64,000 nucleotides of DNA from an uncultured Alphaproteobacteria bacterium (GCA_944391435.1 CALXTP010000004.1:2303-66302), one strand, 5' to 3'. Shown: positions 9,774 to 50,707, counted from the first letter of the stretch. The notes: generated from the letters alone by a model not told the origin. Translations and numbers: made by a program.

Positions 9774-11639
9774 ATGAAACCGATGAAAAGTATCTTATTC
9801 TGGCTCGTTGCTTTCATTTTGCTGAGCGTCATAATGAACGGCATGGCACCCGAAGCCAAAAAGAATGCTGCCGCACCGATTGCTTTTTCGGAATTTATGA
9901 ACAAAGCCGAAAACAATCAGATTGATTCCGTAACCATTATCGGCAATGACATCTACGGCACCTATGCCAACGGCGCCGAATTTCGCACATATGCGCCGTT
10001 TGACCCAAGCATGGTAGAAACGCTGCGCAAACAAGGCGTAAAGATTGAAGCCAAACCGATAGACACCTCAGAAAGTACGTTCTGGGGCATCGTCATTTCC
10101 TGGTTCCCGATGTTATTGCTCATCGGCGTTTGGATTTTTTTCATGCGCCAGGCAAATTCCGGCAACAACAAAGCCATGAGTTTCGGCAAATCCCGTGCCC
10201 GGCTGATTGAAAACACCAAAAAGGTAACTTTTGCCGACGTTGCCGGCGCAGACGAAAGCAAACAGGAGCTGGAAGAGATTATTGATTTCTTAAAAGACCC
10301 GCAAAAATTCCAACGCCTCGGCGGCAAGATTCCGAGAGGCGTGCTGCTCGTCGGACCTCCGGGAACAGGCAAAACCCTGTTGGCAAAAGCCGTCGCCGGT
10401 GAAGCGAATGTCCCGTTCTTTTCCATTTCCGGCTCAGATTTCGTTGAAATGTTTGTCGGTGTCGGAGCATCGCGCGTCCGTGATATGTTCGCCCAGGCCA
10501 AAAAGAATGCACCTTGCCTGCTGTTTATAGACGAAATAGACGCCGTTGGCCGCCATCGCGGCGCCGGTTTGGGCGGCGGCAATGACGAACGTGAGCAAAC
10601 CCTGAACCAGCTGCTGGTGGAAATGGATGGTTTTGAAGCGCACGAAAATGTCATCGTCATCGCAGCCACCAACCGTCCTGACGTTCTGGATCCGGCATTG
10701 CTGCGCCCCGGTCGCTTTGACCGCCAGGTTACCGTAAGCAATCCGGACGTTAAAGGGCGCGAGGAAATTTTAAAAGTCCATACCCGCAAAGTCCCGTTGG
10801 CAAAAGATGTCAATTTAAGCGTCGTCGCACGCGGCACGCCGGGTTTTTCCGGTGCCGATTTGGCCAATCTTGTCAATGAAGCGGCCTTGCTGGCTGCCCG
10901 CAAAAACAAATTAAAAGTAAGCTCAGCAGATTTTGACGAAGCCAAAGACAAGGTCCTGATGGGCAACGAACGCAAATCCATGGCAATGGACGAAAAAGAA
11001 AAGTGCCTGACCGCTTATCATGAAGCAGGCCACGCCGTTTGCTCGTTATACGTCAAAGACACCGATCCGATACACAAAGCCACGATAGTCCCGCGCGGAA
11101 GAGCTTTGGGCATGGTTCAGCAACTGCCGGAAAAAGACAAGTATTCTTATTCCCGCATCCAGATGCTGTCGCGTTTAGCCATCTTAATGGGCGGCCGCGT
11201 TGCCGAGGAGCTGAAATTCGGCTATGGCAACGTAACTTCCGGCGCTTCAGCGGATATCAATGCCGCAACCAACTTGGCACGCGCCATGGTAACGGAATGG
11301 GGGATGAGCGATGTCTTAGGACCGATTCGCTACTCAGAAAACTCTAATGAAGTTTTCTTAGGCCGCGCCGTAACCCAAAATCAAAATATGAGCGAAGAAA
11401 CAGCCCGCCTGGTAGACGCCGAAATCAAACGGTTTGTAACCGAGGGCTATGAAGAAGCGAAAAAGATTTTGCATGAACATCGCGCAGATTGGGAAAAGAT
11501 TGCAGAAGCTCTGATAGAATACGAAACGTTGACCGGCGATGAAATTAAAGAAATTCTGGCCGGCAAAACGATAGACCAGAACAAAGATGCTCCCGTTTCG
11601 GAAGAAAAACGCACAAAAGCATCTATTCCGGAACTGTAA
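9774..11639 (+). CDS. ftsH: ATP-dependent zinc metalloprotease FtsH
   Basis: Two N-terminal TM helices, AAA+ Walker A GPPGTGKT, the SRH region, and the zinc motif HEAGHA. Confidence 0.95.
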
Positions 11640-36298: not shown

Positions 36299-37861
36299 TT
36301 GATGACCGGTTCTTTTTTATCTTTCTTCACAACCGCCACCCGCAAGCTGGATATTCTCCAACAAAAACAAAATCTAATTTTTATATGCAGTTGCACACTT
36401 TTCGCGCTCATAACAATAACGCGCATATTCACCGCTAATTATTTCTTTTTTGATACGGCCGAACATATACATGCCTCATGGCTGGTCAGCATCGGGAAAA
36501 TCCCCTATCGGGATTTTTTTGAACATCATAATCCGTTGCTGTGGTTTTGCCTTGCCCCGCTCACGCAACTGTTTGAAAGAAAGATTTGCCTGATTTTCAT
36601 TGTTCGTTTTGTTGCCGTTATAAGTTGGGCAGCCTGCCTTGCCGTTATATACAAGATAAGCCGAAAATTTTTGTATGACAAACCAAAAGCGCAACTATCC
36701 GTATTGATTTTATTGTCAATCCCCTCCATTTGGGCTGATGCCATAAATATCCGCCCAGACACCTTTATGCTGCTAAGTTTTTTAATGGCCGTATATTTCC
36801 TGTATAATTATCTGGACGGTGCCGGCAGGGCTTCATTGGCTATTTCATATATCTGCTTATCCCTGTCTTTCCTGTTTTTACAAAAAATGCTGTTTCTTGG
36901 CATGGGATTCGCAATAGCCAACCTGTTATTATGGCAACAAAAAAAGATTAAAACGGCCGATATTTGCCTCGCCGCCCTGTATGCGCTTATCCCTCTGATA
37001 ATTTTTCTTTTTTACCTGATAGACAATGATTGTCTGCACACCTGGTTTTACTACAATTTTCCGTTCAACACCCAGCTGAAAAGTTTTTACAAATCCTATA
37101 CATCTGGCCTTTCCGCCCGGCTGGGCACTTTTACAGCCTTATCGCTGCTCGTTTTGGCCAGGTGGTTCCGTCCGACTTGGCAAACGCTTATTATCTGTTG
37201 TTGCGGAATAAGCGCTTTGATGATGGTTAAATTTTTTGCCCCGCACCCCTGGTATTACGTCCCCTATTGGGTATTCGCATCAATCCTTTTAGCCGGCATT
37301 ATCGGCAAAAGCAAATATTTTAGTTTATGGTTTGCCATAATCCTGTATTGCTTCCTGAACACATCAGCAGCACTTCTTCCCAAACAGCACAATATTCTTT
37401 TCGCCCAGACATTGCAAAACATAAAAGATATTATGGAGCATTCTTCAAAACAAGACACCGTGCTCAATCTAAAAAAGGAAACCATCCACCTGTTTAACCA
37501 CGACGCCTTTTATCATTGGTTCGGTTTTCATAATGTTGCTATTTGCGATGCCATCTACAACCGGAAACAGTATTTTGATATAAACACCGCCATAAAAAGC
37601 GCCAAACCGGATATTATCATTTTCGACGGCAATTCATTTTTCCCGGTTGCCCACGATGTTGTTATGACGCAGCGTGAAAACTATCGCATTGCCAGAAACC
37701 AGCATATTATCCAAAAAGCAAGAACGTTCCCGGCAATACTGTCCAAAATAAGCTATCCGCAAGATGACTTCTGGAAAGTTGATAAAAAATGGATAAAACA
37801 GCATTATCAAAAAATAGAAAACACCGATATCTGGAAAAAGCGCCCCGTTCCCGGAACATAA
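36299..37861 (+). CDS. Polytopic membrane protein, putative GT-C-fold glycosyltransferase (paralog 1 of 3)
   Basis: About 11 TM helices and a C-terminal soluble domain. The first extracytoplasmic loop carries the conserved EHIHASWLV..PYRDFFEHHNPL shared with the paralogs at 45489 and 46993. Confidence 0.5.
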   Translation: MMTGSFLSFFTTATRKLDILQQKQNLIFICSCTLFALITITRIFTANYFFFDTAEHIHASWLVSIGKIPYRDFFEHHNPLLWFCLAPLTQLFERKICLIFIVRFVAVISWAACLAVIYKISRKFLYDKPKAQLSVLILLSIPSIWADAINIRPDTFMLLSFLMAVYFLYNYLDGAGRASLAISYICLSLSFLFLQKMLFLGMGFAIANLLLWQQKKIKTADICLAALYALIPLIIFLFYLIDNDCLHTWFYYNFPFNTQLKSFYKSYTSGLSARLGTFTALSLLVLARWFRPTWQTLIICCCGISALMMVKFFAPHPWYYVPYWVFASILLAGIIGKSKYFSLWFAIILYCFLNTSAALLPKQHNILFAQTLQNIKDIMEHSSKQDTVLNLKKETIHLFNHDAFYHWFGFHNVAICDAIYNRKQYFDINTAIKSAKPDIIIFDGNSFFPVAHDVVMTQRENYRIARNQHIIQKARTFPAILSKISYPQDDFWKVDKKWIKQHYQKIENTDIWKKRPVPGT

Positions 37862-40737: not shown

Positions 40738-43086
40738 TCATTGTACCGCCGCTGCCGGAGCCGGAGCAACATTCGCTGCCGGTGCTGCCTCTGCCGGAAC
40801 CGGAGCCGGTGCAACATTAGCCGCCGGGGCTACCTCTGCCGGAACAGGAACCGGCGCAGCATTCGCTGCCGGTGCTGCCTCTGCCGGAACAGGAGCCGGC
40901 GCAACATTCGCTGCCGGTGCTGCCGCTGCAGGAACAGGAACCGGTGCAACATTCGCTGCCGGAGCCGCCTCTGCCGGAACCGGAGCCGGCGCAGCAACAT
41001 GTGCCAAAGGAACATTCCTCACTTCATTGTTAAAAGAACGCATCTCCCCGTTATCATCCATTTCCAAAATCAAATCATCTGTCGGAGCATAAACACGGTT
41101 AGATTCAGCCGGCTGCGAAGCTGAAGCTTTCCTCCCTGAATTTACATTTCTCTCTGCGCCAAAAACTTCTTTATTCTTTTGCTTCGCCTGCAATTTTTTC
41201 TGGTACGTCTGGCTTTTTTGCTTATAAACCTCATACCAATCCCGATAATTGGCGGCAATGTTAGATATTTTGCTGCCACGTAAAACCGAATTGTTAATCA
41301 AATTCTGTTTCAAGCTGACGGCTTCATCAGGCTGCATTTTCATATTATCAATCGTATAGCAATAATCCTGATAACGGATAAGTGTTTTTGTAAAATCGCT
41401 CGCCAGGCAGATATTGGCATTAATCAAAAATTTCGGCCGTTTACCTTTGCGTATGGCCAGGCTGACCAATTGATCCTTCACAAAGTTTGCATATCTGCCG
41501 CCGGTCATTCCCGCCAATTCGCGAATATTGCTCACGCCTTGTACAATAACATCGGTTTTACGGCTCTTGGGGCTGGCCTGCATCTCATCCATATATTCCT
41601 GCAGTTTGCCGATAACACACTTGGCCTGGTCGGCATATGCCTTTCGTTTTTCGTCAATACCGCCTCTGGTCAATGAATTATCTTTCATCGCCACCCATTC
41701 TTTCCGCGGTTTCAAATTGCAAAACTCATCATATATATAAATATCGGAAGGCAAATCCACATAAACCATATAAACTTGTCCCCATGGATCCCTGATATAA
41801 TCTTCCGTCACTTCATCAATCAGGCTGACAGCCCCTTCCTGTGAAACCCGGCGATTCTCAGCCGTAACTTTATACCCTCTGATAGCAGACATCCCCGCCA
41901 GCAAATCTGCCACCGACTTCAATTCCTTGCTTTTAATGCTCAGCACCCATTCGGCCAGCAGGGCATAAACATTTTGTTCCAAAGTCCGGTTAGAATCATA
42001 CAACGGCACCGTTTTATAACTTTTAACCACACATCTGTCCGTATTCAGATTGTTGCCCGTAACACAAAAATTAAACCCTGGCATGGCATAAGTGCTGAGC
42101 CCATAGCCGTTTTCCCGCAAATAATCATACAAACGGTTTTCCTCCAGGCTGAAATAATCCAGTCCGCCGTGAATAAACTCCCATTTATTGATAAACTCCG
42201 AATATGCCCGATTCCCGCTGGTTGTACTGGTATAGTCAACTTGATTAAAGATATCAATAATATTGCTTACCGTATCATTTTTCTTAACAAAAGCATTCGG
42301 ATAAACTTCAAAACCGTTAATGGCAAAAAAGCCAATCATCAAATCGCGCAACTCGCGCAAATTATGGTCTTTCATACTGCTCAAAAACTGATAAGACGGA
42401 AAACGCGGCAGCATAAAATAAACCATATTTCCTTCCCGGTCTTTGCCTGCCTGTGAAGCAAGTGCTTTAACTTCCGTATATTCCCCTTTGGGCTGTTGGA
42501 TAAACTCGTTATTTTTAATACCCAATACGCCGGCAAACATCAAAACCATCGTAACAAAAAGCATGGCAAATGTTGAGCGAAAAGCAAAAAAGATAATAAC
42601 GCCCAACAACAAGCCGACCAGCCATGTACTGGGAACAATGCCGATAAAAGTCAGCCAGCTGGCTTTTTTTTCCAGCCACTTTTCAATAAACGTATCCGCA
42701 TCAAACAACGCAAACTGGTAAAAGAATACGATTGTCACCAAAAGTGTTACCACCGCGCACACGACATTTTGTACATCTTTTGAAAAAGATAAAATCAGCA
42801 TAAGCAAAAAGGCAACAACAAAAACCCCGCCGCAAATAACCAACACTGCTTCATTAACTTTGCCGTTTTCAATCAATTTGCCGTTGATGGAATAAATAAA
42901 CATCACAAAATCTATTGTAAACAGCAAAAAGATATAAAAAGCTCGCAAAAACTTATCATAAAAGTGGTTGGCATTTCCCGTCCAGCTGGCAAATCTGCTT
43001 GAACGGCTTTTTTTTCTTAAAACCAAAGGCTGATTAACTCCCTCGTTCATAATTCCCTCTGTCAAAATTGGACTTTTGTTTACCAT
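40738..43086 (-). CDS. Large membrane protein: 5-6 N-terminal TM helices, roughly 450-aa extracytoplasmic domain, C-terminal Pro/Ala-rich 15-aa tandem repeats
   Basis: 782-aa ORF. The C-terminus carries the repeat APAPVPAEAAPAANV about 5.5 times. The globular domain was not recognised. Confidence 0.55.
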   Translation of the reverse strand: MVNKSPILTEGIMNEGVNQPLVLRKKSRSSRFASWTGNANHFYDKFLRAFYIFLLFTIDFVMFIYSINGKLIENGKVNEAVLVICGGVFVVAFLLMLILSFSKDVQNVVCAVVTLLVTIVFFYQFALFDADTFIEKWLEKKASWLTFIGIVPSTWLVGLLLGVIIFFAFRSTFAMLFVTMVLMFAGVLGIKNNEFIQQPKGEYTEVKALASQAGKDREGNMVYFMLPRFPSYQFLSSMKDHNLRELRDLMIGFFAINGFEVYPNAFVKKNDTVSNIIDIFNQVDYTSTTSGNRAYSEFINKWEFIHGGLDYFSLEENRLYDYLRENGYGLSTYAMPGFNFCVTGNNLNTDRCVVKSYKTVPLYDSNRTLEQNVYALLAEWVLSIKSKELKSVADLLAGMSAIRGYKVTAENRRVSQEGAVSLIDEVTEDYIRDPWGQVYMVYVDLPSDIYIYDEFCNLKPRKEWVAMKDNSLTRGGIDEKRKAYADQAKCVIGKLQEYMDEMQASPKSRKTDVIVQGVSNIRELAGMTGGRYANFVKDQLVSLAIRKGKRPKFLINANICLASDFTKTLIRYQDYCYTIDNMKMQPDEAVSLKQNLINNSVLRGSKISNIAANYRDWYEVYKQKSQTYQKKLQAKQKNKEVFGAERNVNSGRKASASQPAESNRVYAPTDDLILEMDDNGEMRSFNNEVRNVPLAHVAAPAPVPAEAAPAANVAPVPVPAAAAPAANVAPAPVPAEAAPAANAAPVPVPAEVAPAANVAPAPVPAEAAPAANVAPAPAAAVQ
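40741..40995. repeat. 45-bp tandem repeat array, about 5.5 units, coding
   Basis: Units gcaacattcgctgccggtgctgcctctgccggaacaggagccggc with point variants. Near-identical to the array at 44600..44865. Confidence 0.85.
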
Positions 43087-43164
43087 ACGCCATATTTATT
43101 AAATAAAAGCTTAACCTATTTAAAAAGCCGAAAAATTTTCTAAAAAAAATAATCACTATTATTC

Positions 43165-43192
43165 TTGAATTTAAAAAAAAATCCCCTATAAT
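43165..43192 (+). promoter_or_regulatory. Near-consensus sigma70 promoter of ssrA
   Basis: TTGAAT (43165-43170), a 16-nt spacer, TATAAT (43187-43192). The predicted TSS is about 43199. Confidence 0.5.
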
Positions 43193-43199
43193 TCTTCTT

Positions 43200-43506
43200 A
43201 GTATGTGCTTCGGCACACACTTTGATACGAAAAGCCGCATGAAATAGATATATTGGACCCGGGGGCGGTACCCGGCACCTCCACCATAGACGGGGGTGAA
43301 ACAGGTTTGACAGTGTATAGTAAAGATGCGTGGGCTGTATTCGGCAAGACACCACCGTTATCGGTTCAAATCAAATAAACGCAAATGATAATTTTGCACC
43401 GGTTGCCGTAGCCGCATAAGGCAAAGCAACAAATGAAATTCTTCTGGTTATGGTTAACCGGGAGTGGGGAAGGAGCCGCCCAGCAACAGAAGGGCTCATT
43501 TTATTT
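43200..43506 (+). ncRNA. ssrA: tmRNA (ssrA), circularly permuted two-piece type as in alphaproteobacteria
   Basis: The acceptor 3' end GGCACCTCCACCA ends at 43286 after a T-arm CCGGG-GGCGGTA-CCCGG. Five nt later the 5' acceptor strand GGGGGTG (43292) pairs with CACCTCC and includes a G3:U70 pair. The tag ORF GCA AAT GAT AAT TTT GCA CCG GTT GCC GTA GCC GCA TAA (43381-43419) gives ANDNFAPVAVAA. A terminal hairpin at 43473-43497 is followed by a T-rich run. Confidence 0.75.
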
Positions 43507-43531
43507 AATATCTGCAGAAAGACATTTGGGA

Positions 43532-43996
43532 ATGACAGAATTTGTAACCGAAATAAATTATGACAAGCTGATTGAAAAGGCCTTAAAACAAGTTGTCGTT
43601 GAAGCATTAAAGATTGCGGAAGCGCAAGGGCTCCCCGGAGAAAACCATTTTTACATTACATTTAAGACAAATTTCCCCGGCACCTCCGTTCCAAGTGATT
43701 TGCAAATCCAATACCCGGAAAATATGACCATCGTTTTACAGCATCAATATGCCAATCTCCGGGTCGGAACCGATTCTTTTTCTGTTGAGCTGAGTTTTGG
43801 CGGCCGCCCGCAAACGCTCGTCATTCCTTATGACGCCATCACCTATTTTGCCGACCCGTATGCCAAATTCGGTTTGAGCTTTTCGTTTTATGAAAACGGC
43901 GACGTCCACTCGCTTGATGAAATTGAACCTGAAAAGAAAGTTGCCGGCGAAACCGCACAAATTATCTCCTTTGACAGCTTTAGAAAGAAAAAATAA
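43532..43996 (+). CDS. sspB: ClpXP adaptor SspB (stringent starvation protein B-like)
   Basis: HFYITFKTNFPGTSVP...IVLQHQYANLRVGTDSFSVELSFGGRPQTLVIPYDAITYF parallels E. coli SspB HLVVDVTLPGVQVP...IVLNIAPRAVGNLELANDEVRFNARFGGIPRQVSVPLAAV. The basic C-terminal tail ...SFDSFRKKK resembles a ClpX-binding peptide. The start is taken at Met 43532. Confidence 0.6.
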   Translation: MTEFVTEINYDKLIEKALKQVVVEALKIAEAQGLPGENHFYITFKTNFPGTSVPSDLQIQYPENMTIVLQHQYANLRVGTDSFSVELSFGGRPQTLVIPYDAITYFADPYAKFGLSFSFYENGDVHSLDEIEPEKKVAGETAQIISFDSFRKKK

Positions 43997-44229
43997 TGCA
44001 AAAATATTCCGTTGTTATTGCCGGAAAACATTACACCAGCATTTCTTTGGAAAAAGAATTTTATCAGCAGCTTAACATATTGGCATTGGAACAACGCAAG
44101 CCCGTAAACCAGTTGATTACGGAAATTGACAGTACAAAAACCGTTTCCAACTTATCGTCGGCACTACGCCTTTATATATTAAAATCCTTGCAAGACAAGC
44201 TCAACTGCTTGGAATCTTCCGTTTCATAA
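43996..44229 (+). CDS. Ribbon-helix-helix domain protein (RHH_4 family)
   Basis: GKHYTSISLEKEFYQQLNILALEQRKPVNQLITEID...NLSSALRLYIL matches the RHH_4 pattern (HxTSxxLExxFWxxL...LIxEID...NLSSAxRLFxL). Confidence 0.6.
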   Translation: MQKYSVVIAGKHYTSISLEKEFYQQLNILALEQRKPVNQLITEIDSTKTVSNLSSALRLYILKSLQDKLNCLESSVS

Positions 44230-44251: not shown

Positions 44252-45397
44252 TTAAAGGCCGCCATCTTCATCCGCTGCTTCCGGCAAAACGGGATTTTCC
44301 GTTATACTCTCCAAAGACTTTTCTGCTGCATTTTCCGATAAAGTTTCGCTTTGGATATCTTTATGCTCCCCTTCATTCTTCACCGCATCGCCTGTTGCTC
44401 GCGACTCAGCTTCTTCCTCAGAAACTGCTTCAGACTGTGCCTTTAGCAAATCGGCCAATCCTCCGGCCGATACAGCACCATGCAATTCAATTTCTTGGGC
44501 ATGGCTTGTTTCCCGATTGGTTTCATCTGATTTTTCAACAACTGCTTCCGCATCTGCTGCACCTTCTTTAACCTCTGCCCCTGCCGGCGATTCGCCTGCT
44601 ATGGCATTCGCCGCTGGTGCCGCCCCTGCCGGAACAGGAGCCGGCGCAACATCTACCGCCGGAACAGCCTCTGCCGGAACCGGAGCCGGCGCAACATCCG
44701 CCGCCGGTGCTGTCGCTGCAGGAACTGGAGCCGGCGCAACATTCGCTGCCGGTGCCGCCTCTGCCGGAACTGGAGCCGGCGCAACATCCGCCGCCGGTGC
44801 CGCCTCTGCCGGAACTGGAGCCGGCGCAACATTCGCTGCCGGTGCTGCCTCTGCCGGAACAGCTATATCTTCAGCAGCAATACCTTCTTTAACATCCTCC
44901 CCTGTGGACGGCATTTCAGCATCTGTACTTATCGCAGGCGCCACACCTTCTTTTACTTTTTTAAATCCGCCCTTTCTCTTCTTAAAATCAATTTTACCCT
45001 GTTCTGCCTCTTTATCCCGGGATAGTTTGGCATTATAATTTTCGCTCTTCGGACGTGCAGCTTCAGCCGCCTCCTCTTCCATCTTCCGCTTGGTTTCCTT
45101 AACTTCCTGAACAATAGCATCCGGAATAAAGCCGGTATCGCCGCTTTCTACAGCCTTGGTAACCGCCTCAAATTTAAATGCCTCATATTTATTCTGATAC
45201 CAAGTCAAAATTTCTTCCGGTTTAACCCCCTGACTCATCGGATAATATGCTGCGCCTCCGGCAGCCAACGCCAAAATAAACAATATCCACAGCGGATGCC
45301 TGAGAATAAACAGCAACACAAAAATCGGAAAAGTGATAACACTCAGCACTATATAAAAAAATCTGAACAAACTACTCCGTTTTTTCGGCTCGGCCAT
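44252..45397 (-). CDS. Membrane-anchored protein with Pro/Ala-rich 15-aa tandem repeats and an acidic C-terminal tail
   Basis: Two N-terminal TM helices, a K/E-rich segment, about 6 repeats of AAPAANVAPAPVPAE, then a D/E/S-rich tail. Confidence 0.55.
   Translation of the reverse strand: MAEPKKRSSLFRFFYIVLSVITFPIFVLLFILRHPLWILFILALAAGGAAYYPMSQGVKPEEILTWYQNKYEAFKFEAVTKAVESGDTGFIPDAIVQEVKETKRKMEEEAAEAARPKSENYNAKLSRDKEAEQGKIDFKKRKGGFKKVKEGVAPAISTDAEMPSTGEDVKEGIAAEDIAVPAEAAPAANVAPAPVPAEAAPAADVAPAPVPAEAAPAANVAPAPVPAATAPAADVAPAPVPAEAVPAVDVAPAPVPAGAAPAANAIAGESPAGAEVKEGAADAEAVVEKSDETNRETSHAQEIELHGAVSAGGLADLLKAQSEAVSEEEAESRATGDAVKNEGEHKDIQSETLSENAAEKSLESITENPVLPEAADEDGGL
44600..44865. repeat. 45-bp tandem repeat array, about 6 units, coding
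   Basis: gcaacattcgctgccggtgccgcctctgccggaactggagccggc and variants. The same repeat family as 40741..40995. Confidence 0.85.
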
Positions 45398-45488: not shown

Positions 45489-47030
45489 TCAATCTTCATA
45501 AGACCACTGTCCTGTCGCCACATTCAGGACACACTTTTTCTGCTCATATTCCGGTTTCAAACGATAGATAGAACCAAACCTTGTCGGCTGATAGTATTTT
45601 TCAACAACAGCCGGATCAATATAGTGTACAACTTCCGGTTTTCGCGTTTCATCGGAAAATTTGTTAAAATAGCTCCGCCCGTAGATAAATTTAGGCCTTA
45701 AACGCAAAATAAGCCCATTCACGTCAGGTTTCGGATAAATTCCCGTTTCTTCACCGATAACATCAAGTTGCCCGATAAGCTGCCAATAATAGGCCGGATC
45801 TTTGCCAAATAAATTGTACATCATGCCATCGCCATTAAAAACATAATCACAAGGGTTGATGGAGCGTGCAATATAGTCCGGCAAATATTCCCGCCCGTTC
45901 TGAGACAAAATCAGTCCCCGTTGAAACAAAAACACATGATAAAAAGCAAAATACAATCCGGCTATAATCAGCCAAACAACCAAATGGCACTTTTCATAAA
46001 GCCTCGCCAACAGCGGAACAGCGCATAAAACCGCAAAATAAAGCAACAGCCAATAATAATACGAATATGGCGAAAAATAAAATTTCCGCTGCACAAATTC
46101 CGCGACAAACAACAAAGCAATAACCCGCCAATATCGGTTTTTGCCCCAAAGAGCCACCACCGTTCCCACAAAAGCAGCCACAGACCAGACCAACATATAT
46201 GTCGGCAGTTCAACCACCCGGCCGAGATCAAACCCCCGTTCCAAATTCAGATTAAACGTATAATTGGAATCATAATAAAGCCCGACCATATCATAATGCA
46301 CCAAATACAAAATAAAAACGGCCACCATGAGTAACGGCAGAATCATGGCTCTGGCCATATCTGCCGTCTTAATGTATTTTTTGTACCAAAAATAAAGCCC
46401 CGTAATCCCCAAGACAGCCAGCGGAAACAACGCCTTTTGTGCAAAAAAGAACGATAATGCAAACCAAACGAACGCCACCGCCAGATGCCGAAAATTTTGC
46501 TGTTTGAGATACAAAAAATAATAATAAAGCCCTCCCGTCAGGCAAAAAACCATATAATTATCCGGCCGAAAATCCACGGCATACAGCTTATAACTCGGCG
46601 TTGCAATAGCGGCCGCGGCCACTACGCCCCACAGTTTATTGCTCAAAAATTCGGCATTTATGCGATATACATACACCAGCGACTTCAAAAAAACCAAAAA
46701 GGAAATCAGGCACACAACTTCCGTTATCGTTGCATTATAAGCAAATAAAGCCGTTAATGGCGCAAACAGATACCACATCAGCGGATTATGGTGCTGGAAA
46801 AAATCCCGATAAGGCACCAGCCCCTGCATAATCAAAAAGCTGGAATGGATATGCTCTATATTATCCCCGTTTTGCGTCGGCACATGCGCCGTCATCATCA
46901 CATACATAATAGATACGGATACCAGATAAACCCCCAACGCCCCGAAAGCACCGAATTTATCTATAAGTGCATAAAAAGACCGGCCCATTTGTTTAATTCT
47001 TTCCATATTGCCAAACTCCCGTCTTTTCAT
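45489..47030 (-). CDS. Polytopic membrane protein, putative GT-C-fold glycosyltransferase (paralog 2 of 3)
   Basis: EHIHSSFLIMQGLVPYRDFFQHHNPLMWY motif and about 11 TM helices. The start is uncertain (47030, 47006 or 46988). Confidence 0.5.
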   Translation of the reverse strand: MKRREFGNMERIKQMGRSFYALIDKFGAFGALGVYLVSVSIMYVMMTAHVPTQNGDNIEHIHSSFLIMQGLVPYRDFFQHHNPLMWYLFAPLTALFAYNATITEVVCLISFLVFLKSLVYVYRINAEFLSNKLWGVVAAAAIATPSYKLYAVDFRPDNYMVFCLTGGLYYYFLYLKQQNFRHLAVAFVWFALSFFFAQKALFPLAVLGITGLYFWYKKYIKTADMARAMILPLLMVAVFILYLVHYDMVGLYYDSNYTFNLNLERGFDLGRVVELPTYMLVWSVAAFVGTVVALWGKNRYWRVIALLFVAEFVQRKFYFSPYSYYYWLLLYFAVLCAVPLLARLYEKCHLVVWLIIAGLYFAFYHVFLFQRGLILSQNGREYLPDYIARSINPCDYVFNGDGMMYNLFGKDPAYYWQLIGQLDVIGEETGIYPKPDVNGLILRLRPKFIYGRSYFNKFSDETRKPEVVHYIDPAVVEKYYQPTRFGSIYRLKPEYEQKKCVLNVATGQWSYED

Positions 47031-48564
47031 CTTTTACACAATCGCGTCGGATATATTCTTTTTTCAGGCGATATAATCCGCGCGGATATTCAAAATAAAC
47101 CTCTTTCTGAAGTTCAAAATTCCATTTTCCGTCGTTGACGATTTCCGTCGGCTCATATAATTTATCCAGCACCTCCTTATTAAAGGTATAAATTGTTTGC
47201 TCTTCATCAAAAAAACTCTTTATATCATCAACCCAGATAAACTTAGGGCGATATTTTTGGATAAGCGCACCATAATCATCATAATCATGCAGCCCGATTT
47301 TTGCACCGACAATCGACAGACGCCCCGGAATAAACCAATAATATTCCGGAGTTTTGCTAAACAAAAACAAAATTCCACCATTGCCTGTTAAAACATAATC
47401 GCACCGGTTTGTTTGTTCCCACAAATACTCCAAAACCGTCTTGTGATATTTATAAACAATATCATTATAAAAGCACATACCCATATAAATAAGATAACAC
47501 TGTATCTCCACAAACACGATAAGCAGCAGGATTTTCCATTTTTCTGCCAATTTCATGACACCGGCAGCAGCTAACGGAACGGCAAAGAAATACGCTTCGT
47601 AATAGTAATAAACATGTGGGGAAAAATAAAAGACCTTGCTGGCATAAATAAGTACAAACAGCCACACCCAGCAACGAAAATACCGCCCCATATATTTATA
47701 CAGGGCAATTCCCGAAAATATCGCCGCGCCAAACATAATATTGGCAATATCCCAAGCTCTGTTTATACGCCTGTCGCCAAATAGATCCACCATCTCCCGG
47801 TTAAAAGCAAAATTCATTTGATAGTAAACATCCCATAAACCGGCAGACCATAAATACAAAGCAAGGCACGCCGCACTGGCCAGCGGAAAAATAATGGCTG
47901 AGCCAAAATCGCGCCATTTCATTTCCCGCGTATAAAGAAGCCAGCCAGACCAAACCGCAACCAATGGAAAATAAAACAACGCCTTTTGGCAAAACAAAAA
48001 AGCAACCCAGAAAGCGGCATACGAAAAAATCAAATCGCGGCGTTTCTTATCGCGCATATAGCAAAACAGATAATATATGCCCGCCATAACGCAGGTAAAC
48101 ATATAATTATCCGGCTTGAAATAAACATAATACAAAAATATTCCGGGCGCCAGCAGCATCAACACGGATAACAAAGCCGCCGTCCGCCCGCTTAAAAACT
48201 CCGTAATAACTTTATATAAAAAAACAAGCCCTATAACAAAAAACAAAAAAGTGATATAATTAACGACTCCGAATACATGAATATTTCTCTCAAGTAAACC
48301 TACAACCGGAGCAAACAAATACCATAACAGAGGATGATGATGTTCAAAAAAATCACGATACGGCACAGCCCCCTGATGGACTAAAAAACTGGCCTGGATA
48401 TGTTCGGCAATATCGCCTTCCGCCCACTCAAAATACACTGTAGCAAGGCTGACAAGCCCCAATATCACCAATAAATTAACAAACAGGGTAGCATCAATCC
48501 ATATCGGAAAGCGCCGCCACACCGTCTGCCAAATATTTTCCAGTCCGTGTTTCACGTACCCCAC
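46993..48564 (-). CDS. Polytopic membrane protein, putative GT-C-fold glycosyltransferase (paralog 3 of 3)
   Basis: EHIQASFLVHQGAVPYRDFFEHHHPLLWY motif. GTG start 7 nt after the malQ stop. Confidence 0.5.
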   Translation of the reverse strand: MGYVKHGLENIWQTVWRRFPIWIDATLFVNLLVILGLVSLATVYFEWAEGDIAEHIQASFLVHQGAVPYRDFFEHHHPLLWYLFAPVVGLLERNIHVFGVVNYITFLFFVIGLVFLYKVITEFLSGRTAALLSVLMLLAPGIFLYYVYFKPDNYMFTCVMAGIYYLFCYMRDKKRRDLIFSYAAFWVAFLFCQKALFYFPLVAVWSGWLLYTREMKWRDFGSAIIFPLASAACLALYLWSAGLWDVYYQMNFAFNREMVDLFGDRRINRAWDIANIMFGAAIFSGIALYKYMGRYFRCWVWLFVLIYASKVFYFSPHVYYYYEAYFFAVPLAAAGVMKLAEKWKILLLIVFVEIQCYLIYMGMCFYNDIVYKYHKTVLEYLWEQTNRCDYVLTGNGGILFLFSKTPEYYWFIPGRLSIVGAKIGLHDYDDYGALIQKYRPKFIWVDDIKSFFDEEQTIYTFNKEVLDKLYEPTEIVNDGKWNFELQKEVYFEYPRGLYRLKKEYIRRDCVKDEKTGVWQYGKN

Positions 48565-48571
48565 CCTCTTG

Positions 48572-50707
48572 CTAGCGCCATTTTTTCACCGCGGCAATAT
48601 GGCGATGATACATTTCGCTGTCCGCAATATCTTCTACCTCAACCGGAAGTTTGCTGCGCCAATTCGGATATAAGGGCACATCTGTCCCCGGCAGGTTTTG
48701 TATCTTCTCGGATTGGAAAATATCTTCCGGCTGCAACATAAACACTTCGCTGTTGGATTTTGCCATATAGGCATGAACAGCTTCTTCAATCCCCTCCGGA
48801 TAGCCGTCGCCGTAAAGATAATCAGATTTTCTCAACCGGTCCGCCGGCCATACGCCCTCGCCGTCCAATGCCTGCAGCAAAAGCCATCGTTCATGCTCAC
48901 GCCAGTGATACCCGTTCTGCATTTCCTCTTCGGTATATAGGCCCAACTCATGCATCAAGCCGATTTCCCTGGCATACCACCAGGCTTTTAACGGCGGCAT
49001 ATCATGTGTCCCGACTGAAGCGAAATAAGCACGCTCATATTCTTCCGGCTTTTTCATTGTGCCGTTTTCATCTTTACGTTCAACCCACAACACGCCGAGA
49101 GAATAAATATTACGTTCCCGGAGCATATCCTGAAAACCGTCCGACACATTGCCGATACATTCGCCGACCACGACACATTTGTTCAAATAGCTTTCCAGCG
49201 CCAAAATATTGAACATATCCTCGGCATTATACATCAGATACGTTCCTTCTTCGCCTTTGTCGGGAATCAAATACAAACGTGAAAGCCCCATCACATGGTC
49301 AATCCGAACAGCTCCGGCATAACGCATATTGGCGCGCAAAATACGGATAAACGGCTTATATGCCCGTTCTTTGAGTTCAAAAGGGTTAAACGCCCCCAAC
49401 ATCCATTTCTGCCCGATGGGAAAGCTGTTATCCGGCGGCGCCCCTGCACCGCTGTCTTGCATATAAAGATACTTATCGCCCCACACTTCGGCACTGTTTT
49501 TGGAAACGCCTACCGGCAAATCCCGATAAAGTCCGACAGCCAGGCCGCGTTCTTTTATTTTAGTAAAAACTTCCTGCAGCTGCCTGTCTGCCTCAAATTG
49601 TAAAAATTTGAAAAAATCTATCTCTTCGCTGTGCCCGGCCACAAATTTTTCCATTTCGTTGCCCATAGACATTTTATCAATGCTTTTAACTTTTTTTTGC
49701 CCGTTCTTTTGGGCATTGTGCCTCATTTCTTCATACGCCTGAAAAACAGCCAGCCTCTGCAATTCTCCCGTATCATTCGCCGCAAATTCTTCAAATTTTT
49801 TGTAATAATCGGATTTGCGTTGCTTCATCACCCGTGCAAAAATACGCCGCAAAGCCTTTATCTTCGCCGTATAAACTGTCGTATAGTCAATATTTTCGCT
49901 TTCCCTGGCCGTGGCAATTGCCGCCTCGTCCTTATCCTGCGCCTCATAAAAAGGCACCCTTTCCACATCAATATAAATCGGATTTAAAAATAAACGGCTG
50001 ACCGATGCATACGGGCTGGCACATTCGGGATAATCATGCTGTAACACATTAAGCGGGTTAAGCCCGATAATATCGCCGCCGCTTTGCGCCAAAACATCAA
50101 CCATCCGGCTCAAATCCGTAAAATCACCCACGCCCCAATTCCGGCGGCTTTTCAGCGAATACAGCTGCAGCGCAAAGCCAAACAATTTATCTTTGCCTTT
50201 CTTATCCAACCCATAACATGTACACGGAGCCACCGCCAATATGGTCTTATATGTAGCTTTGGCCGTTTTAACATCTATGTCATAATATCCGGGCGCCATA
50301 TCGGCGTCAATATCATAGCGCAATTTAACATATGACGTACGAGATTCTTGCCTTTTCTCCATTTCGGTCAAACACCCCGGCAACGGTTGAAAATCTCCGC
50401 TTCCTTCCGGCGCATAAAAAAAAGCTGCTCCGCTCTCGGCTTCCTTTTCCGTCAACACGATATCAATATTTTTATTATCTGTTTTTCGCACATACACCAC
50501 GTCCAAAGCATATTGCCAGCGCTTTTTTTCTATCCTTTCCAAAGACTTGCGGATTTCCTCGTCGTTTTTGGCATGATAGCCGAGGCTTTCAATAAAAAAG
50601 CGCACCAAGTCATCGCTGGCTTCTCGGGTTTTAACAGAACCGCATGTATATGTAAAACGGGTACAAACGCCCAATTTTTCCGCCAAAACGTCTAAAATTC
50701 CGCTCAT
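48572..50707 (-). CDS. malQ: 4-alpha-glucanotransferase (amylomaltase), long MalQ form
   Basis: 711 aa with the GH77 catalytic region (RIDHVMGL..., GECIG, GTHDMPP). Confidence 0.9.
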   Translation of the reverse strand: MSGILDVLAEKLGVCTRFTYTCGSVKTREASDDLVRFFIESLGYHAKNDEEIRKSLERIEKKRWQYALDVVYVRKTDNKNIDIVLTEKEAESGAAFFYAPEGSGDFQPLPGCLTEMEKRQESRTSYVKLRYDIDADMAPGYYDIDVKTAKATYKTILAVAPCTCYGLDKKGKDKLFGFALQLYSLKSRRNWGVGDFTDLSRMVDVLAQSGGDIIGLNPLNVLQHDYPECASPYASVSRLFLNPIYIDVERVPFYEAQDKDEAAIATARESENIDYTTVYTAKIKALRRIFARVMKQRKSDYYKKFEEFAANDTGELQRLAVFQAYEEMRHNAQKNGQKKVKSIDKMSMGNEMEKFVAGHSEEIDFFKFLQFEADRQLQEVFTKIKERGLAVGLYRDLPVGVSKNSAEVWGDKYLYMQDSGAGAPPDNSFPIGQKWMLGAFNPFELKERAYKPFIRILRANMRYAGAVRIDHVMGLSRLYLIPDKGEEGTYLMYNAEDMFNILALESYLNKCVVVGECIGNVSDGFQDMLRERNIYSLGVLWVERKDENGTMKKPEEYERAYFASVGTHDMPPLKAWWYAREIGLMHELGLYTEEEMQNGYHWREHERWLLLQALDGEGVWPADRLRKSDYLYGDGYPEGIEEAVHAYMAKSNSEVFMLQPEDIFQSEKIQNLPGTDVPLYPNWRSKLPVEVEDIADSEMYHRHIAAVKKWR

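What the first reader, a model, noticed from the sequence alone, without database searches (positions are those of the whole stretch)
43165..44229. Permuted two-piece tmRNA followed directly by its proteolysis adaptor sspB and an RHH_4 protein
The ssrA locus has the alphaproteobacterial circular permutation: the acceptor 3' end (…CACCTCCACCA) comes first, then a 5-nt linker, then the GGGGGUG 5' strand with a G3:U70 pair. The tag reads ANDNFAPVAVAA. The next gene, starting about 25 nt after the tmRNA terminal hairpin, has clear SspB N-domain similarity. It is followed, overlapping the stop, by an RHH_4 ribbon-helix-helix protein. Direct ssrA-sspB linkage is not the E. coli arrangement, where sspA-sspB sit elsewhere. 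Here the tag and its ClpX adaptor would be a single locus. The tag's C-terminus (…PVAVAA) differs from the …FAVAA/…ALAA forms I recall.
Basis: partly seen in the sequence, partly recalled or inferred. Interest (0 to 1): 0.55.

Follow-up and report, generated by a model that had tools for sequence, protein, structure and literature searches.

The report
Ordinary alphaproteobacterial tmRNA–sspB–RHH gene cluster
This is a real two-piece (circularly permuted) tmRNA gene followed by its SspB-type ClpX adaptor gene and a small ribbon-helix-helix gene, but the same arrangement is standard across Alphaproteobacteria, so it is an ordinary locus in an uncultured gut lineage.

Summary

**tmRNA.** ARAGORN calls a permuted tmRNA at 43194..43510 with tag ANDNFAPVAVAA. 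Rfam alpha_tmRNA scores 200 bits. The encoded CCA, the 5-nt linker TAGAC and the G3:U70 pair are all present.

**Downstream genes.** ORF 43532..43996 matches Pfam SspB at 133 bits. Its best solved relative is Caulobacter SspB-alpha. ORF 43996..44229 matches RHH_4 at 61 bits, and its ATG overlaps the sspB stop (TAATG).

**The arrangement is not unusual.**
- ssrA lies directly upstream of sspB in all 74 of 80 related gut or rumen MAG loci that could be scored. Four more were not checked by Rfam and two lacked upstream sequence.
- The same holds in Caulobacter, Sinorhizobium and Agrobacterium, and in 48 of 54 environmental alphaproteobacterial contigs.
- RHH_4 follows sspB in 80 of 80 gut-clade loci.
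- Usually preceded by DUF4169, RHH_4 also follows sspB in Rhizobiaceae and in 29 of 36 environmental contigs.
- Tags ending in PVAVAA are common.

**What is specific to this clade.** The locus is compact. The intervening linker is minimal, 5 nt against about 26-80 nt elsewhere. There is no DUF4169. Only about 21-31 nt separate the tmRNA end from the sspB start, which suggests co-transcription.

**What remains open.** The function of RHH_4 is unknown. Overall interest is low.

The parts
43165..43192 (+). Sigma-70-type promoter of ssrA (TTGAAT, 16 nt, TATAAT). The predicted transcription start is near 43199-43201.
   Evidence: The promoter scan gives 10 of 12 matches. The CTTGAA...TATAAT/TATACT boxes align in essentially all related loci. 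The Rfam alpha_tmRNA model covers this region.
43194..43510 (+). Circularly permuted tmRNA (ssrA) precursor gene.
   Evidence: ARAGORN calls it tmRNA*. Rfam RF01849 scores 200.2 bits and RF04321 scores 142.2 bits.
43200..43286 (+). Acceptor piece: the 5' hairpin, the strands that pair with the coding piece, the T-arm, the 3' acceptor strand CACCUCC, the discriminator A and the encoded CCA (43284-43286).
   Evidence: Rfam structure alignment and the sequence itself. The 5' end is inferred from the promoter position.
43287..43291 (+). Intervening linker TAGAC, removed during processing. It is at the minimum length seen in this clade.
   Evidence: Sequence. Linker surveys: 5-21 nt in most gut-clade relatives, about 26-80 nt in Rhizobiaceae and environmental loci.
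43292..43510 (+). Coding piece: the 5' acceptor strand GGGGGUG (with G3:U70), the tag reading frame, the 3' domain and a terminal hairpin followed by a T-run (ATTTTATTT).
   Evidence: The 3' end is approximate: 43500 by Rfam, 43510 by ARAGORN.
43381..43419 (+). Tag reading frame GCA AAT GAT AAT TTT GCA CCG GTT GCC GTA GCC GCA TAA, encoding ANDNFAPVAVAA and a stop.
   Evidence: ARAGORN. The identical tag occurs in 44 related loci.
43532..43996 (+). sspB, alphaproteobacterial type (SspB-alpha), 154 aa. It has an N-terminal substrate-binding domain, an acidic linker and a conserved C-terminal tail IISFDSFRKKK.
   Evidence: Pfam SspB at 132.8 bits. PDB 2qas/2qaz (Caulobacter SspB) at E 3e-30 and 2nys (Agrobacterium) at E 3e-25. 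The tail is conserved with Caulobacter and Rhizobiaceae. The start at 43532 is preferred over 43433 because of in-frame stops in relatives.
43996..44229 (+). RHH_4 ribbon-helix-helix protein, 77 aa. Its start overlaps the sspB stop (TAATG).
   Evidence: Pfam PF13467 at 60.6 bits. A homologue sits in the same position in 80 of 80 gut-clade loci, with a junction of -4 to +3 nt in 78 of them. A profile hits PDB 3kk4, an uncharacterised protein. The AF2 model (pLDDT 81) matches 3kk4 first and single-chain Arc second.

Best explanation
This is the standard alphaproteobacterial trans-translation and proteolysis cluster, in a compact form carried by an uncultured gut or rumen alphaproteobacterial lineage. 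A sigma-70-type promoter at 43165-43192 drives a permuted tmRNA precursor. Cleavage by tRNA-processing enzymes at G1 (43292) and trimming back to the encoded CCA (43286) would remove the 5-nt linker. That yields an acceptor piece and a coding piece held together by base pairing (inferred from the family, not shown here). Alanyl-tmRNA, recognised through G3:U70, enters stalled ribosomes and appends (A)ANDNFAPVAVAA. The next gene encodes an SspB-alpha adaptor. Its N-domain is expected to bind the ANDNFA-proximal part of the tag. Its conserved C-terminal tail (IISFDSFRKKK) is expected to tether the complex to the ClpX N-domain, while ClpX engages the C-terminal ...VAA (inferred by homology with Caulobacter SspB-alpha). 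Only 21-31 nt separate the tmRNA end from the sspB ATG, and no promoter-like site lies in that gap. The sspB-RHH_4 message is therefore most likely made by read-through of the weak tmRNA terminal hairpin and T-run, which would link adaptor expression to ssrA transcription (inference, about 0.55). RHH_4 is translationally coupled to sspB. It is most likely a small DNA-binding regulator whose target is unknown (inference, low confidence).
For: tmRNA identity: with the structure read. SspB identity. RHH_4 identity. Conservation of the layout: in the 80 related genome loci, 63 have an ARAGORN tmRNA ending 9-42 nt before sspB. All 11 ARAGORN-negative loci that were tested have an Rfam alpha_tmRNA in the same place. 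All 80 have RHH_4 directly after sspB. In Caulobacter, alpha_tmRNA lies upstream of sspB on the same strand. In S. meliloti and Agrobacterium the order is tmRNA, sspB, DUF4169, RHH_4. Among environmental contigs, 48 of 54 have tmRNA upstream and 29 of 36 have RHH_4 downstream on the same strand. CC2102, a 162-aa Caulobacter protein that I take from memory to be SspB-alpha, is reported as present in virtually all Alphaproteobacteria (PMC1182365, PMC2241609). No promoter-like site was found between 43420 and 43531.
Against: No RNA data were available, so two-piece processing and co-transcription are not shown. The terminator scan did not call the tmRNA terminal hairpin, because its loop is longer than 8 nt, and the region does not fold better than shuffled sequence (z = -1.1). 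How much transcription terminates or reads through is therefore unknown. A weak promoter-like site inside ssrA (43365-43392, 9 of 12) could serve sspB instead. RHH_4 is absent next to sspB in Caulobacterales, and other genes separate it from sspB in many environmental loci. Its link to trans-translation may therefore be only positional. No operator-like repeat conserved near the promoter was seen.
Confidence: 0.88

Rival explanations
1. sspB-RHH_4 is transcribed from its own promoter, embedded in the 3' half of the tmRNA gene, rather than by read-through from the ssrA promoter.
For: A 9-of-12 promoter-like match, TTCAAA-16-GATAAT, lies at 43365-43392. A T-run follows the tmRNA terminal hairpin, which could stop most ssrA transcripts. 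Other alphaproteobacteria have gaps of 100-300 nt that could hold separate promoters.
Against: The match is at chance level: 7 sites were found against 3.2 +/- 1.9 expected in shuffles. Its -10 hexamer is made of the conserved tag codons AAT GAT AAT, so its conservation cannot be read as promoter conservation. Gaps of only 9-42 nt are the rule in this clade.
Confidence: 0.35
2. The RHH_4 gene has no functional connection with tmRNA or SspB. Its position is inherited gene order. It may be a remnant of an independent DUF4169-RHH_4 module, with tight packing in a compact genome producing the stop/start overlap.
For: In Rhizobiaceae and soil contigs the tight pair is DUF4169-RHH_4. That pair is often separated from sspB by 1.6-2.4 kb. 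Caulobacterales have other genes after sspB. A solved homologue of the family comes from the betaproteobacterium Bordetella pertussis (PDB 3kk4).
Against: Same-strand linkage downstream of sspB persists across at least two distant alphaproteobacterial groups. The stop/start junction is kept at -4 to +3 nt in 78 of 80 gut-clade loci that have diverged to 50-87% RHH_4 identity.
Confidence: 0.5
3. The true SspB product is the 187-aa ORF starting at ATG 43433, as some public gene calls have it. That would make the protein overlap the tmRNA 3' domain.
For: The frame is open from 43433. The 99%-identical database protein P0001 is recorded as 187 aa.
Against: Most homologues are 153-155 aa. In 79 related loci the codon aligned to 43532 is ATG in 74. 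An in-frame stop lies within 16 codons upstream in 41 loci, and most of the loci inspected have no upstream in-frame ATG. The extension coincides with conserved tmRNA sequence.
Confidence: 0.04

Closest known systems
Caulobacter crescentus/vibrioides ssrA (two-piece tmRNA; Keiler, Shapiro and Williams 2000) with sspB-alpha (CC2102; Lessner et al. 2007; structures 2qas/2qaz)
   Same: Both have a permuted alpha_tmRNA directly upstream of sspB on the same strand. The SspB N-domain is 46-49% identical. The C-terminal tail has the same pattern, IVSLDQFRKK in Caulobacter against IISFDSFRKKK here. The tags share ANDNFA...AVAA.
   Different: The Caulobacter tag is ANDNFAEEFAVAA. Its ssrA-sspB gap is about 120-440 nt, against 21-31 nt here. 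The genes after sspB there are a 4HBT thioesterase and Peptidase_C13, not RHH_4. The regex-derived Caulobacterales linker is about 214 nt, against 5 nt here.
Rhizobiaceae cluster ssrA - sspB - DUF4169 - RHH_4 (Sinorhizobium meliloti, Agrobacterium larrymoorei; Agrobacterium SspB structure 2nys)
   Same: The gene order and strand are the same, and an RHH_4 gene closes the cluster. The S. meliloti RHH_4 is 36% identical and shares the HxTS..LE..F and NLSSA.R.Y.L motifs.
   Different: A DUF4169 gene sits between sspB and RHH_4. It is absent from the window. The linker is 30-38 nt and includes a hairpin. The ssrA-sspB gap is about 200 nt. The tags are ANDNYAEARLAA and ANDNNAKEYALAA.
E. coli ssrA/smpB and the sspA-sspB operon
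   Same: The pathway logic is the same: the tmRNA tag, an SspB dimer that tethers tagged proteins to the ClpX N-domain, and ClpXP degradation (established knowledge; review PMC3985003).
   Different: E. coli has a one-piece tmRNA, and sspB is unlinked to ssrA. The window protein scores only 13-15 bits against the NCBIfam gamma/beta SspB equivalog models, whose cut-offs are 135-202 bits. From memory of Chowdhury et al. 2010, the E. coli ClpX-binding tail (LRVVK) differs from the alpha type.

Membership tests
Alphaproteobacterial permuted (two-piece) tmRNA, Rfam RF01849 / RF04321 | The covariance-model score exceeds the curated gathering threshold. | tested here: met
   200.2 bits against a threshold of 50, and 142.2 bits against 47. 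Both hits cover the full length of the model.
Alphaproteobacterial permuted (two-piece) tmRNA, Rfam RF01849 / RF04321 | Circular permutation: the T-arm, 3' acceptor strand and CCA come before the 5' acceptor strand and the tag reading frame. | tested here: met
   CCA lies at 43284-43286, G1 at 43292 and the tag at 43381-43419. ARAGORN flags the gene as permuted (tmRNA*).
Alphaproteobacterial permuted (two-piece) tmRNA, Rfam RF01849 / RF04321 | A 7-bp acceptor stem with the G3:U70 alanine identity pair. | tested here: met
   GGGGGUG (43292-43298) pairs with CACCUCC (43276-43282), and G3 pairs with U at 43280.
Alphaproteobacterial permuted (two-piece) tmRNA, Rfam RF01849 / RF04321 | A tag reading frame that resumes on an Ala codon, starts with ANDN and ends in a hydrophobic ...AA degron plus a stop. 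| tested here: met
   ANDNFAPVAVAA followed by a stop. The same or near-identical tags occur in 63 relatives.
Alphaproteobacterial permuted (two-piece) tmRNA, Rfam RF01849 / RF04321 | The mature RNA exists as two base-paired pieces after the intervening sequence is removed. | not testable with these tools
   This needs Northern blots or RNA-seq. A free CCA 3' end is required for charging, so cleavage is expected.
Alphaproteobacterial permuted (two-piece) tmRNA, Rfam RF01849 / RF04321 | The partner protein SmpB is encoded in the genome. | tested here: inconclusive
   No smpB was found in the 64-kb window (tblastn best E 3.8). The rest of the genome is not available.
SspB-alpha (alphaproteobacterial ClpXP adaptor for ssrA-tagged proteins) | The SspB substrate-binding domain (Pfam PF04386) is present. 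| tested here: met
   132.8 bits against a cut-off of 27, covering residues 13-129.
SspB-alpha (alphaproteobacterial ClpXP adaptor for ssrA-tagged proteins) | The protein is closer to the characterised alpha-type adaptors than to the gamma/beta-type SspB. | tested here: met
   The best PDB hits are Caulobacter 2qas/2qaz (E 3e-30) and Agrobacterium 2nys (E 3e-25). The NCBIfam gamma/beta equivalog models give only 13-15 bits.
SspB-alpha (alphaproteobacterial ClpXP adaptor for ssrA-tagged proteins) | A flexible linker followed by a conserved C-terminal ClpX-binding tail of about 10 residues. | tested here: met
   S146, D148, F150 and R151 are invariant. The tail follows [IV][VI]S[LIF]DxFRKK across the window, the gut clade, Caulobacter and Rhizobiaceae. 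Binding itself was not tested. That this tail is the ClpX-binding element rests on my memory of Chowdhury et al. 2010.
SspB-alpha (alphaproteobacterial ClpXP adaptor for ssrA-tagged proteins) | The protein binds the cognate ssrA tag and enhances ClpXP degradation. | not testable with these tools
   This needs a biochemical assay.
RHH_4 (Pfam PF13467) | The profile match exceeds the gathering threshold. | tested here: met
   60.6 bits against a cut-off of 25, covering residues 2-64 of a 67-position model.
RHH_4 (Pfam PF13467) | The protein has a ribbon-helix-helix fold. | tested here: met
   The AF2 single-sequence model has pLDDT 80.9, with strand 14-19 followed by helices 20-32 and 37-45. The Foldseek top hits are 3kk4, a family member, and permuted single-chain Arc. 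The E-values are weak (0.03 and 0.23).
RHH_4 (Pfam PF13467) | The protein binds DNA or has a regulatory function. | not testable with these tools
   No characterised member was found. The literature search for PF13467 / RHH_4 returned nothing relevant. PDB 3kk4 is deposited as uncharacterised.
Rhizobiales-type ssrA-sspB-DUF4169-RHH_4 cluster | A DUF4169 gene lies between sspB and RHH_4. | tested here: not met
   There is no DUF4169 homologue anywhere in the window (best E 2.7). sspB and RHH_4 overlap directly.

The most novel reading that the evidence does not exclude
RHH_4, and DUF4169 where it is present, could be an unrecognised dedicated component or regulator of the alphaproteobacterial tmRNA-SspB-ClpXP pathway. 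In this clade the sspB-RHH_4 mRNA could be made from the same primary transcript as the tmRNA, so that processing of the tmRNA 3' end creates the 5' end of the mRNA. A related lead concerns DUF4169. Its proteins begin with [IV][IV]NLRx[AF]RK[RQK], which resembles the SspB-alpha C-terminal ClpX-binding tail. They might therefore dock on, or compete for, the ClpX N-domain.
Probability: 0.2. Interest if true: 0.45.

Novelty: new member of a known kind. Interest (0 to 1): 0.12.

Why it matters
It matters little for discovery. The locus confirms that an uncultured gut or rumen alphaproteobacterial lineage keeps the canonical two-piece tmRNA and its SspB-alpha adaptor as one compact unit. It has three practical uses.

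1. **Annotation.** sspB starts at 43532, not at the 187-aa call that overlaps ssrA.
2. **A natural minimal example.** A permuted tmRNA with a 5-nt intervening linker could be used to study precursor processing.
3. **A flagged gene neighbourhood.** The ssrA-sspB-(DUF4169)-RHH_4 neighbourhood is widely conserved, and two of its members still have no known function.

Tried and rejected
1. **Primary papers on SspB-alpha.** I tried to read Lessner 2007 (PMC1797230), Chowdhury 2010 (PMC2865724), Chien 2007 (by DOI) and Kuhlmann and Chien 2017 (PMC5534377). None is held. The claim that the linkage is already known therefore rests on my own locus comparisons and on memory.
2. **Literature searches.** Searches for 'downstream of ssrA' with sspB, for the tag string, and for PF13467 / RHH_4 found nothing useful.
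3. **Terminator and fold at the tmRNA 3' end.** The scan called no canonical terminator there. The fold is no better than shuffled sequence (z = -1.1).
4. **Operator search.** I looked for an RHH operator near the ssrA promoter by aligning 110 nt upstream from 64 loci. Only the -35 and -10 boxes are conserved, together with a block that belongs to the start region of the divergent upstream gene. The AATAAT-CACT-ATTATT palindrome at 43150-43165 is not conserved.
5. **RHH_4 function.** The PDB profile search and Foldseek reached only an uncharacterised family member (3kk4) and generic Arc-type folds.
6. **The longer ORF.** I considered and rejected the 187-aa ORF as the true SspB.
7. **Other pathway genes in the window.** smpB and clpX are absent. 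The only AAA+ hit is FtsH at 9774..11639.

Full report
**Observation**

ARAGORN reports a permuted tmRNA at 43194..43510 (+) with tag ANDNFAPVAVAA. Rfam's alpha_tmRNA model matches end to end at 200.2 bits (E 2e-56, 43161..43500), and the newer tmRNA_permuted model matches at 142.2 bits.

Reading the sequence directly:
- The 3' acceptor strand CACCUCC is 43276-43282.
- The discriminator A and CCA are 43283-43286.
- A five-base linker TAGAC is 43287-43291.
- The 5' strand GGGGGUG is 43292-43298, so G3 pairs with U70.
- The tag frame is 43381..43419.

The stated start coordinate (43165) is the -35 hexamer of a TTGAAT-16-TATAAT promoter. These boxes align in essentially all relatives.

**The two proteins**

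*SspB.* ORF 43532..43996 (154 aa) matches Pfam SspB at 132.8 bits. Its best solved relatives are Caulobacter SspB (2qas/2qaz, E 3e-30) and Agrobacterium AGR_C_3712p (2nys). Against NCBI's equivalog models for the E. coli-type SspB it scores only 13-15 bits. It is therefore the alphaproteobacterial type.

An alignment with Caulobacter, Sinorhizobium, Agrobacterium and gut-clade proteins shows three parts: a conserved N-domain, a variable acidic linker, and a conserved C-terminal tail following [IV][VI]S[LIF]DxFRKK (IISFDSFRKKK here). From memory of Chowdhury et al. 2010, the Caulobacter ClpX-binding determinant spans the last ten or so residues, which fits. I could not retrieve that paper.

The longer ORF from 43433 (187 aa, as in database protein P0001) is a gene-calling artefact. 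In 79 relatives the codon aligned to 43532 is ATG in 74. In-frame stops lie within 16 codons upstream in 41 of them.

*RHH_4.* ORF 43996..44229 (77 aa) matches RHH_4 at 60.6 bits. Its ATG overlaps the sspB stop (TAATG).

**Is the arrangement unusual? No.**

*Gut and rumen relatives.* A scan of one genome per species returned 80 loci with SspB 60-92% identical. All come from uncultured gut or rumen Alphaproteobacteria under various labels, including 'Acetobacter sp. 46_36', 'Candidatus Scatocola' and HGM16780.
- ARAGORN finds a permuted tmRNA ending 9-42 nt before sspB in 63 of them.
- All 11 ARAGORN-negative loci that I tested have a full-length Rfam alpha_tmRNA in the same position.
- Of the remaining six loci, two lack enough upstream sequence and four were not checked with Rfam.
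- All 80 have an RHH_4 homologue directly after sspB. The stop/start junction lies between -4 and +3 nt in 78.

*Cultured lineages.* In Caulobacter sp. 1776 and in a 3.6-Mb Caulobacterales genome, alpha_tmRNA (tag ANDNFAEEFAVAA) lies upstream of sspB on the same strand. In Sinorhizobium meliloti and Agrobacterium larrymoorei the order is tmRNA, sspB, DUF4169, RHH_4.

*Environmental contigs.* A metagenome scan with a consensus SspB returned 80 soil, freshwater, marine and compost contigs.
- Of 54 with at least 700 nt upstream, 48 carry a permuted tmRNA just upstream on the same strand. The six negatives were also Rfam-negative.
- Of 36 with at least 2.4 kb downstream, 29 carry RHH_4 on the same strand. 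DUF4169 lies just before it in 26.

*Published distribution.* Gupta's group lists CC2102, a 162-aa Caulobacter protein, as present in virtually all Alphaproteobacteria (PMC1182365, PMC2241609). That CC2102 is SspB-alpha is from my memory of Lessner et al. 2007.

Within the class this is the default layout.

**The tag**

The PVAVAA ending is also ordinary. ANDNFAPVAVAA occurs 44 times among the gut-clade loci. ANDNYAPVAVAA occurs 7 times, ANDNYAPVALAA 15 times and ANDNYAPVAQAA 15 times among the environmental loci.

**What is specific to this clade**

1. *Short intervening sequence.* The stretch between CCA and G1 is very short. It is 5 nt here and 5-21 nt in most relatives, against 30-38 nt with a hairpin in Rhizobiaceae and about 26-80 nt in environmental loci. 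About a dozen relatives instead carry inserts of 88-575 nt. The 2025 tmRNA database paper already notes that the longest known tmRNA gene is a permuted one from the genus HGM16780, with a repetitive element in its intervening sequence (PMC11915505). This clade is therefore already represented in curated tmRNA data.
2. *No DUF4169.* The gene is absent from the window, and sspB and RHH_4 are translationally coupled.
3. *Tight spacing.* sspB begins 21-31 nt after the tmRNA end, with no promoter-like site in the gap.

**Mechanism**

The following steps are inferred from the family or by homology; none is shown by RNA or biochemical data here.
- The precursor is transcribed from the 43165-43192 promoter.
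- tRNA-processing enzymes cut at G1 and trim to CCA, releasing two base-paired pieces (review PMC3985003; PMC11915505).
- AlaRS charges the RNA through G3:U70.
- Stalled ribosomes resume on GCA at 43381 and append ANDNFAPVAVAA.
- SspB-alpha dimers bind the tag and tether substrates to ClpX through the C-terminal tail.

Inferred from anatomy, at about 0.55: sspB-RHH_4 is expressed by read-through from ssrA. The rival is a promoter embedded in ssrA. The only candidate (43365-43392) is a chance-level match built from tag codons.

RHH_4 is a predicted ribbon-helix-helix protein. The AF2 model has pLDDT 81, and its best structural matches are the uncharacterised family member 3kk4 and Arc. Its role is unknown. 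I found no conserved operator near the promoter. Its absence next to sspB in Caulobacterales and its looser spacing in many soil contigs allow the possibility that the linkage is only historical.

**Verdict**

The locus is a compact member of a known, class-wide arrangement. Interest is low. The residual novelty lies in the uncharacterised RHH_4 and DUF4169 genes that travel with ssrA-sspB, and in the likely tmRNA-mRNA co-transcript.

Noticed in passing
L084:3538-3753, L085:3667-3864 and about 40 environmental loci (e.g. L155, L118, L143); not in the window: DUF4169 proteins, encoded between sspB and RHH_4 in Rhizobiaceae and many environmental Alphaproteobacteria, start with M-x-[ED]-[IV]-[IV]-N-L-R-x-[AF]-R-K-[RQK]. 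This resembles the SspB-alpha C-terminal tail [IV][VI]S[LIF]DxFRKK. It may be a ClpX N-domain docking motif. This is a lead only.
   Followed up: partly
L077 (575 nt), L051 (252), L071 (201), L065 (188), L035/L042 (160-161), L032 (156), L057/L068 (147), L052 (96), L037 (88): Some relatives carry long inserts in the tmRNA CCA-to-G1 intervening sequence, where the window has 5 nt. No Rfam family matched the inserts in the loci scanned. PMC11915505 mentions a repetitive element in the intervening sequence of an HGM16780 tmRNA.
   Followed up: partly
window 40738..43086 (-) and 44252..45397 (-): The two genes flanking the ssrA cluster (782 aa and 381 aa) have no Pfam match. Both contain the same Pro/Ala-rich repeats of about 15 aa (AAPAANVAPAPVPAE...). 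The 782-aa protein also looks like a multi-pass membrane protein.
   Followed up: no
window 36299..37861 (+), 45489..47030 (-), 46993..48564 (-): There are three paralogous PMT_2-like (GT-C fold glycosyltransferase) membrane proteins. Two are adjacent and overlapping. A 4-alpha-glucanotransferase lies next to them at 48572..50707.
   Followed up: no
window 43433..43996: Public gene calls (P0001, 187 aa, 99% identical) start SspB at an upstream ATG inside the tmRNA gene. Comparative evidence places the start at 43532.
   Followed up: yes
window about 43085..43125: A block (CATAT..TTAAATAAAAGCTTAAC) is conserved across L001-L031. It lies about 70-80 nt upstream of the ssrA -35 box. It coincides with the start codon and leader of the divergent 782-aa gene and is probably that gene's translation or transcription signal.
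   Followed up: no
window 9774..11639 (+): FtsH, another protease that degrades ssrA-tagged proteins, is encoded in the window. clpX and smpB are not.
   Followed up: partly
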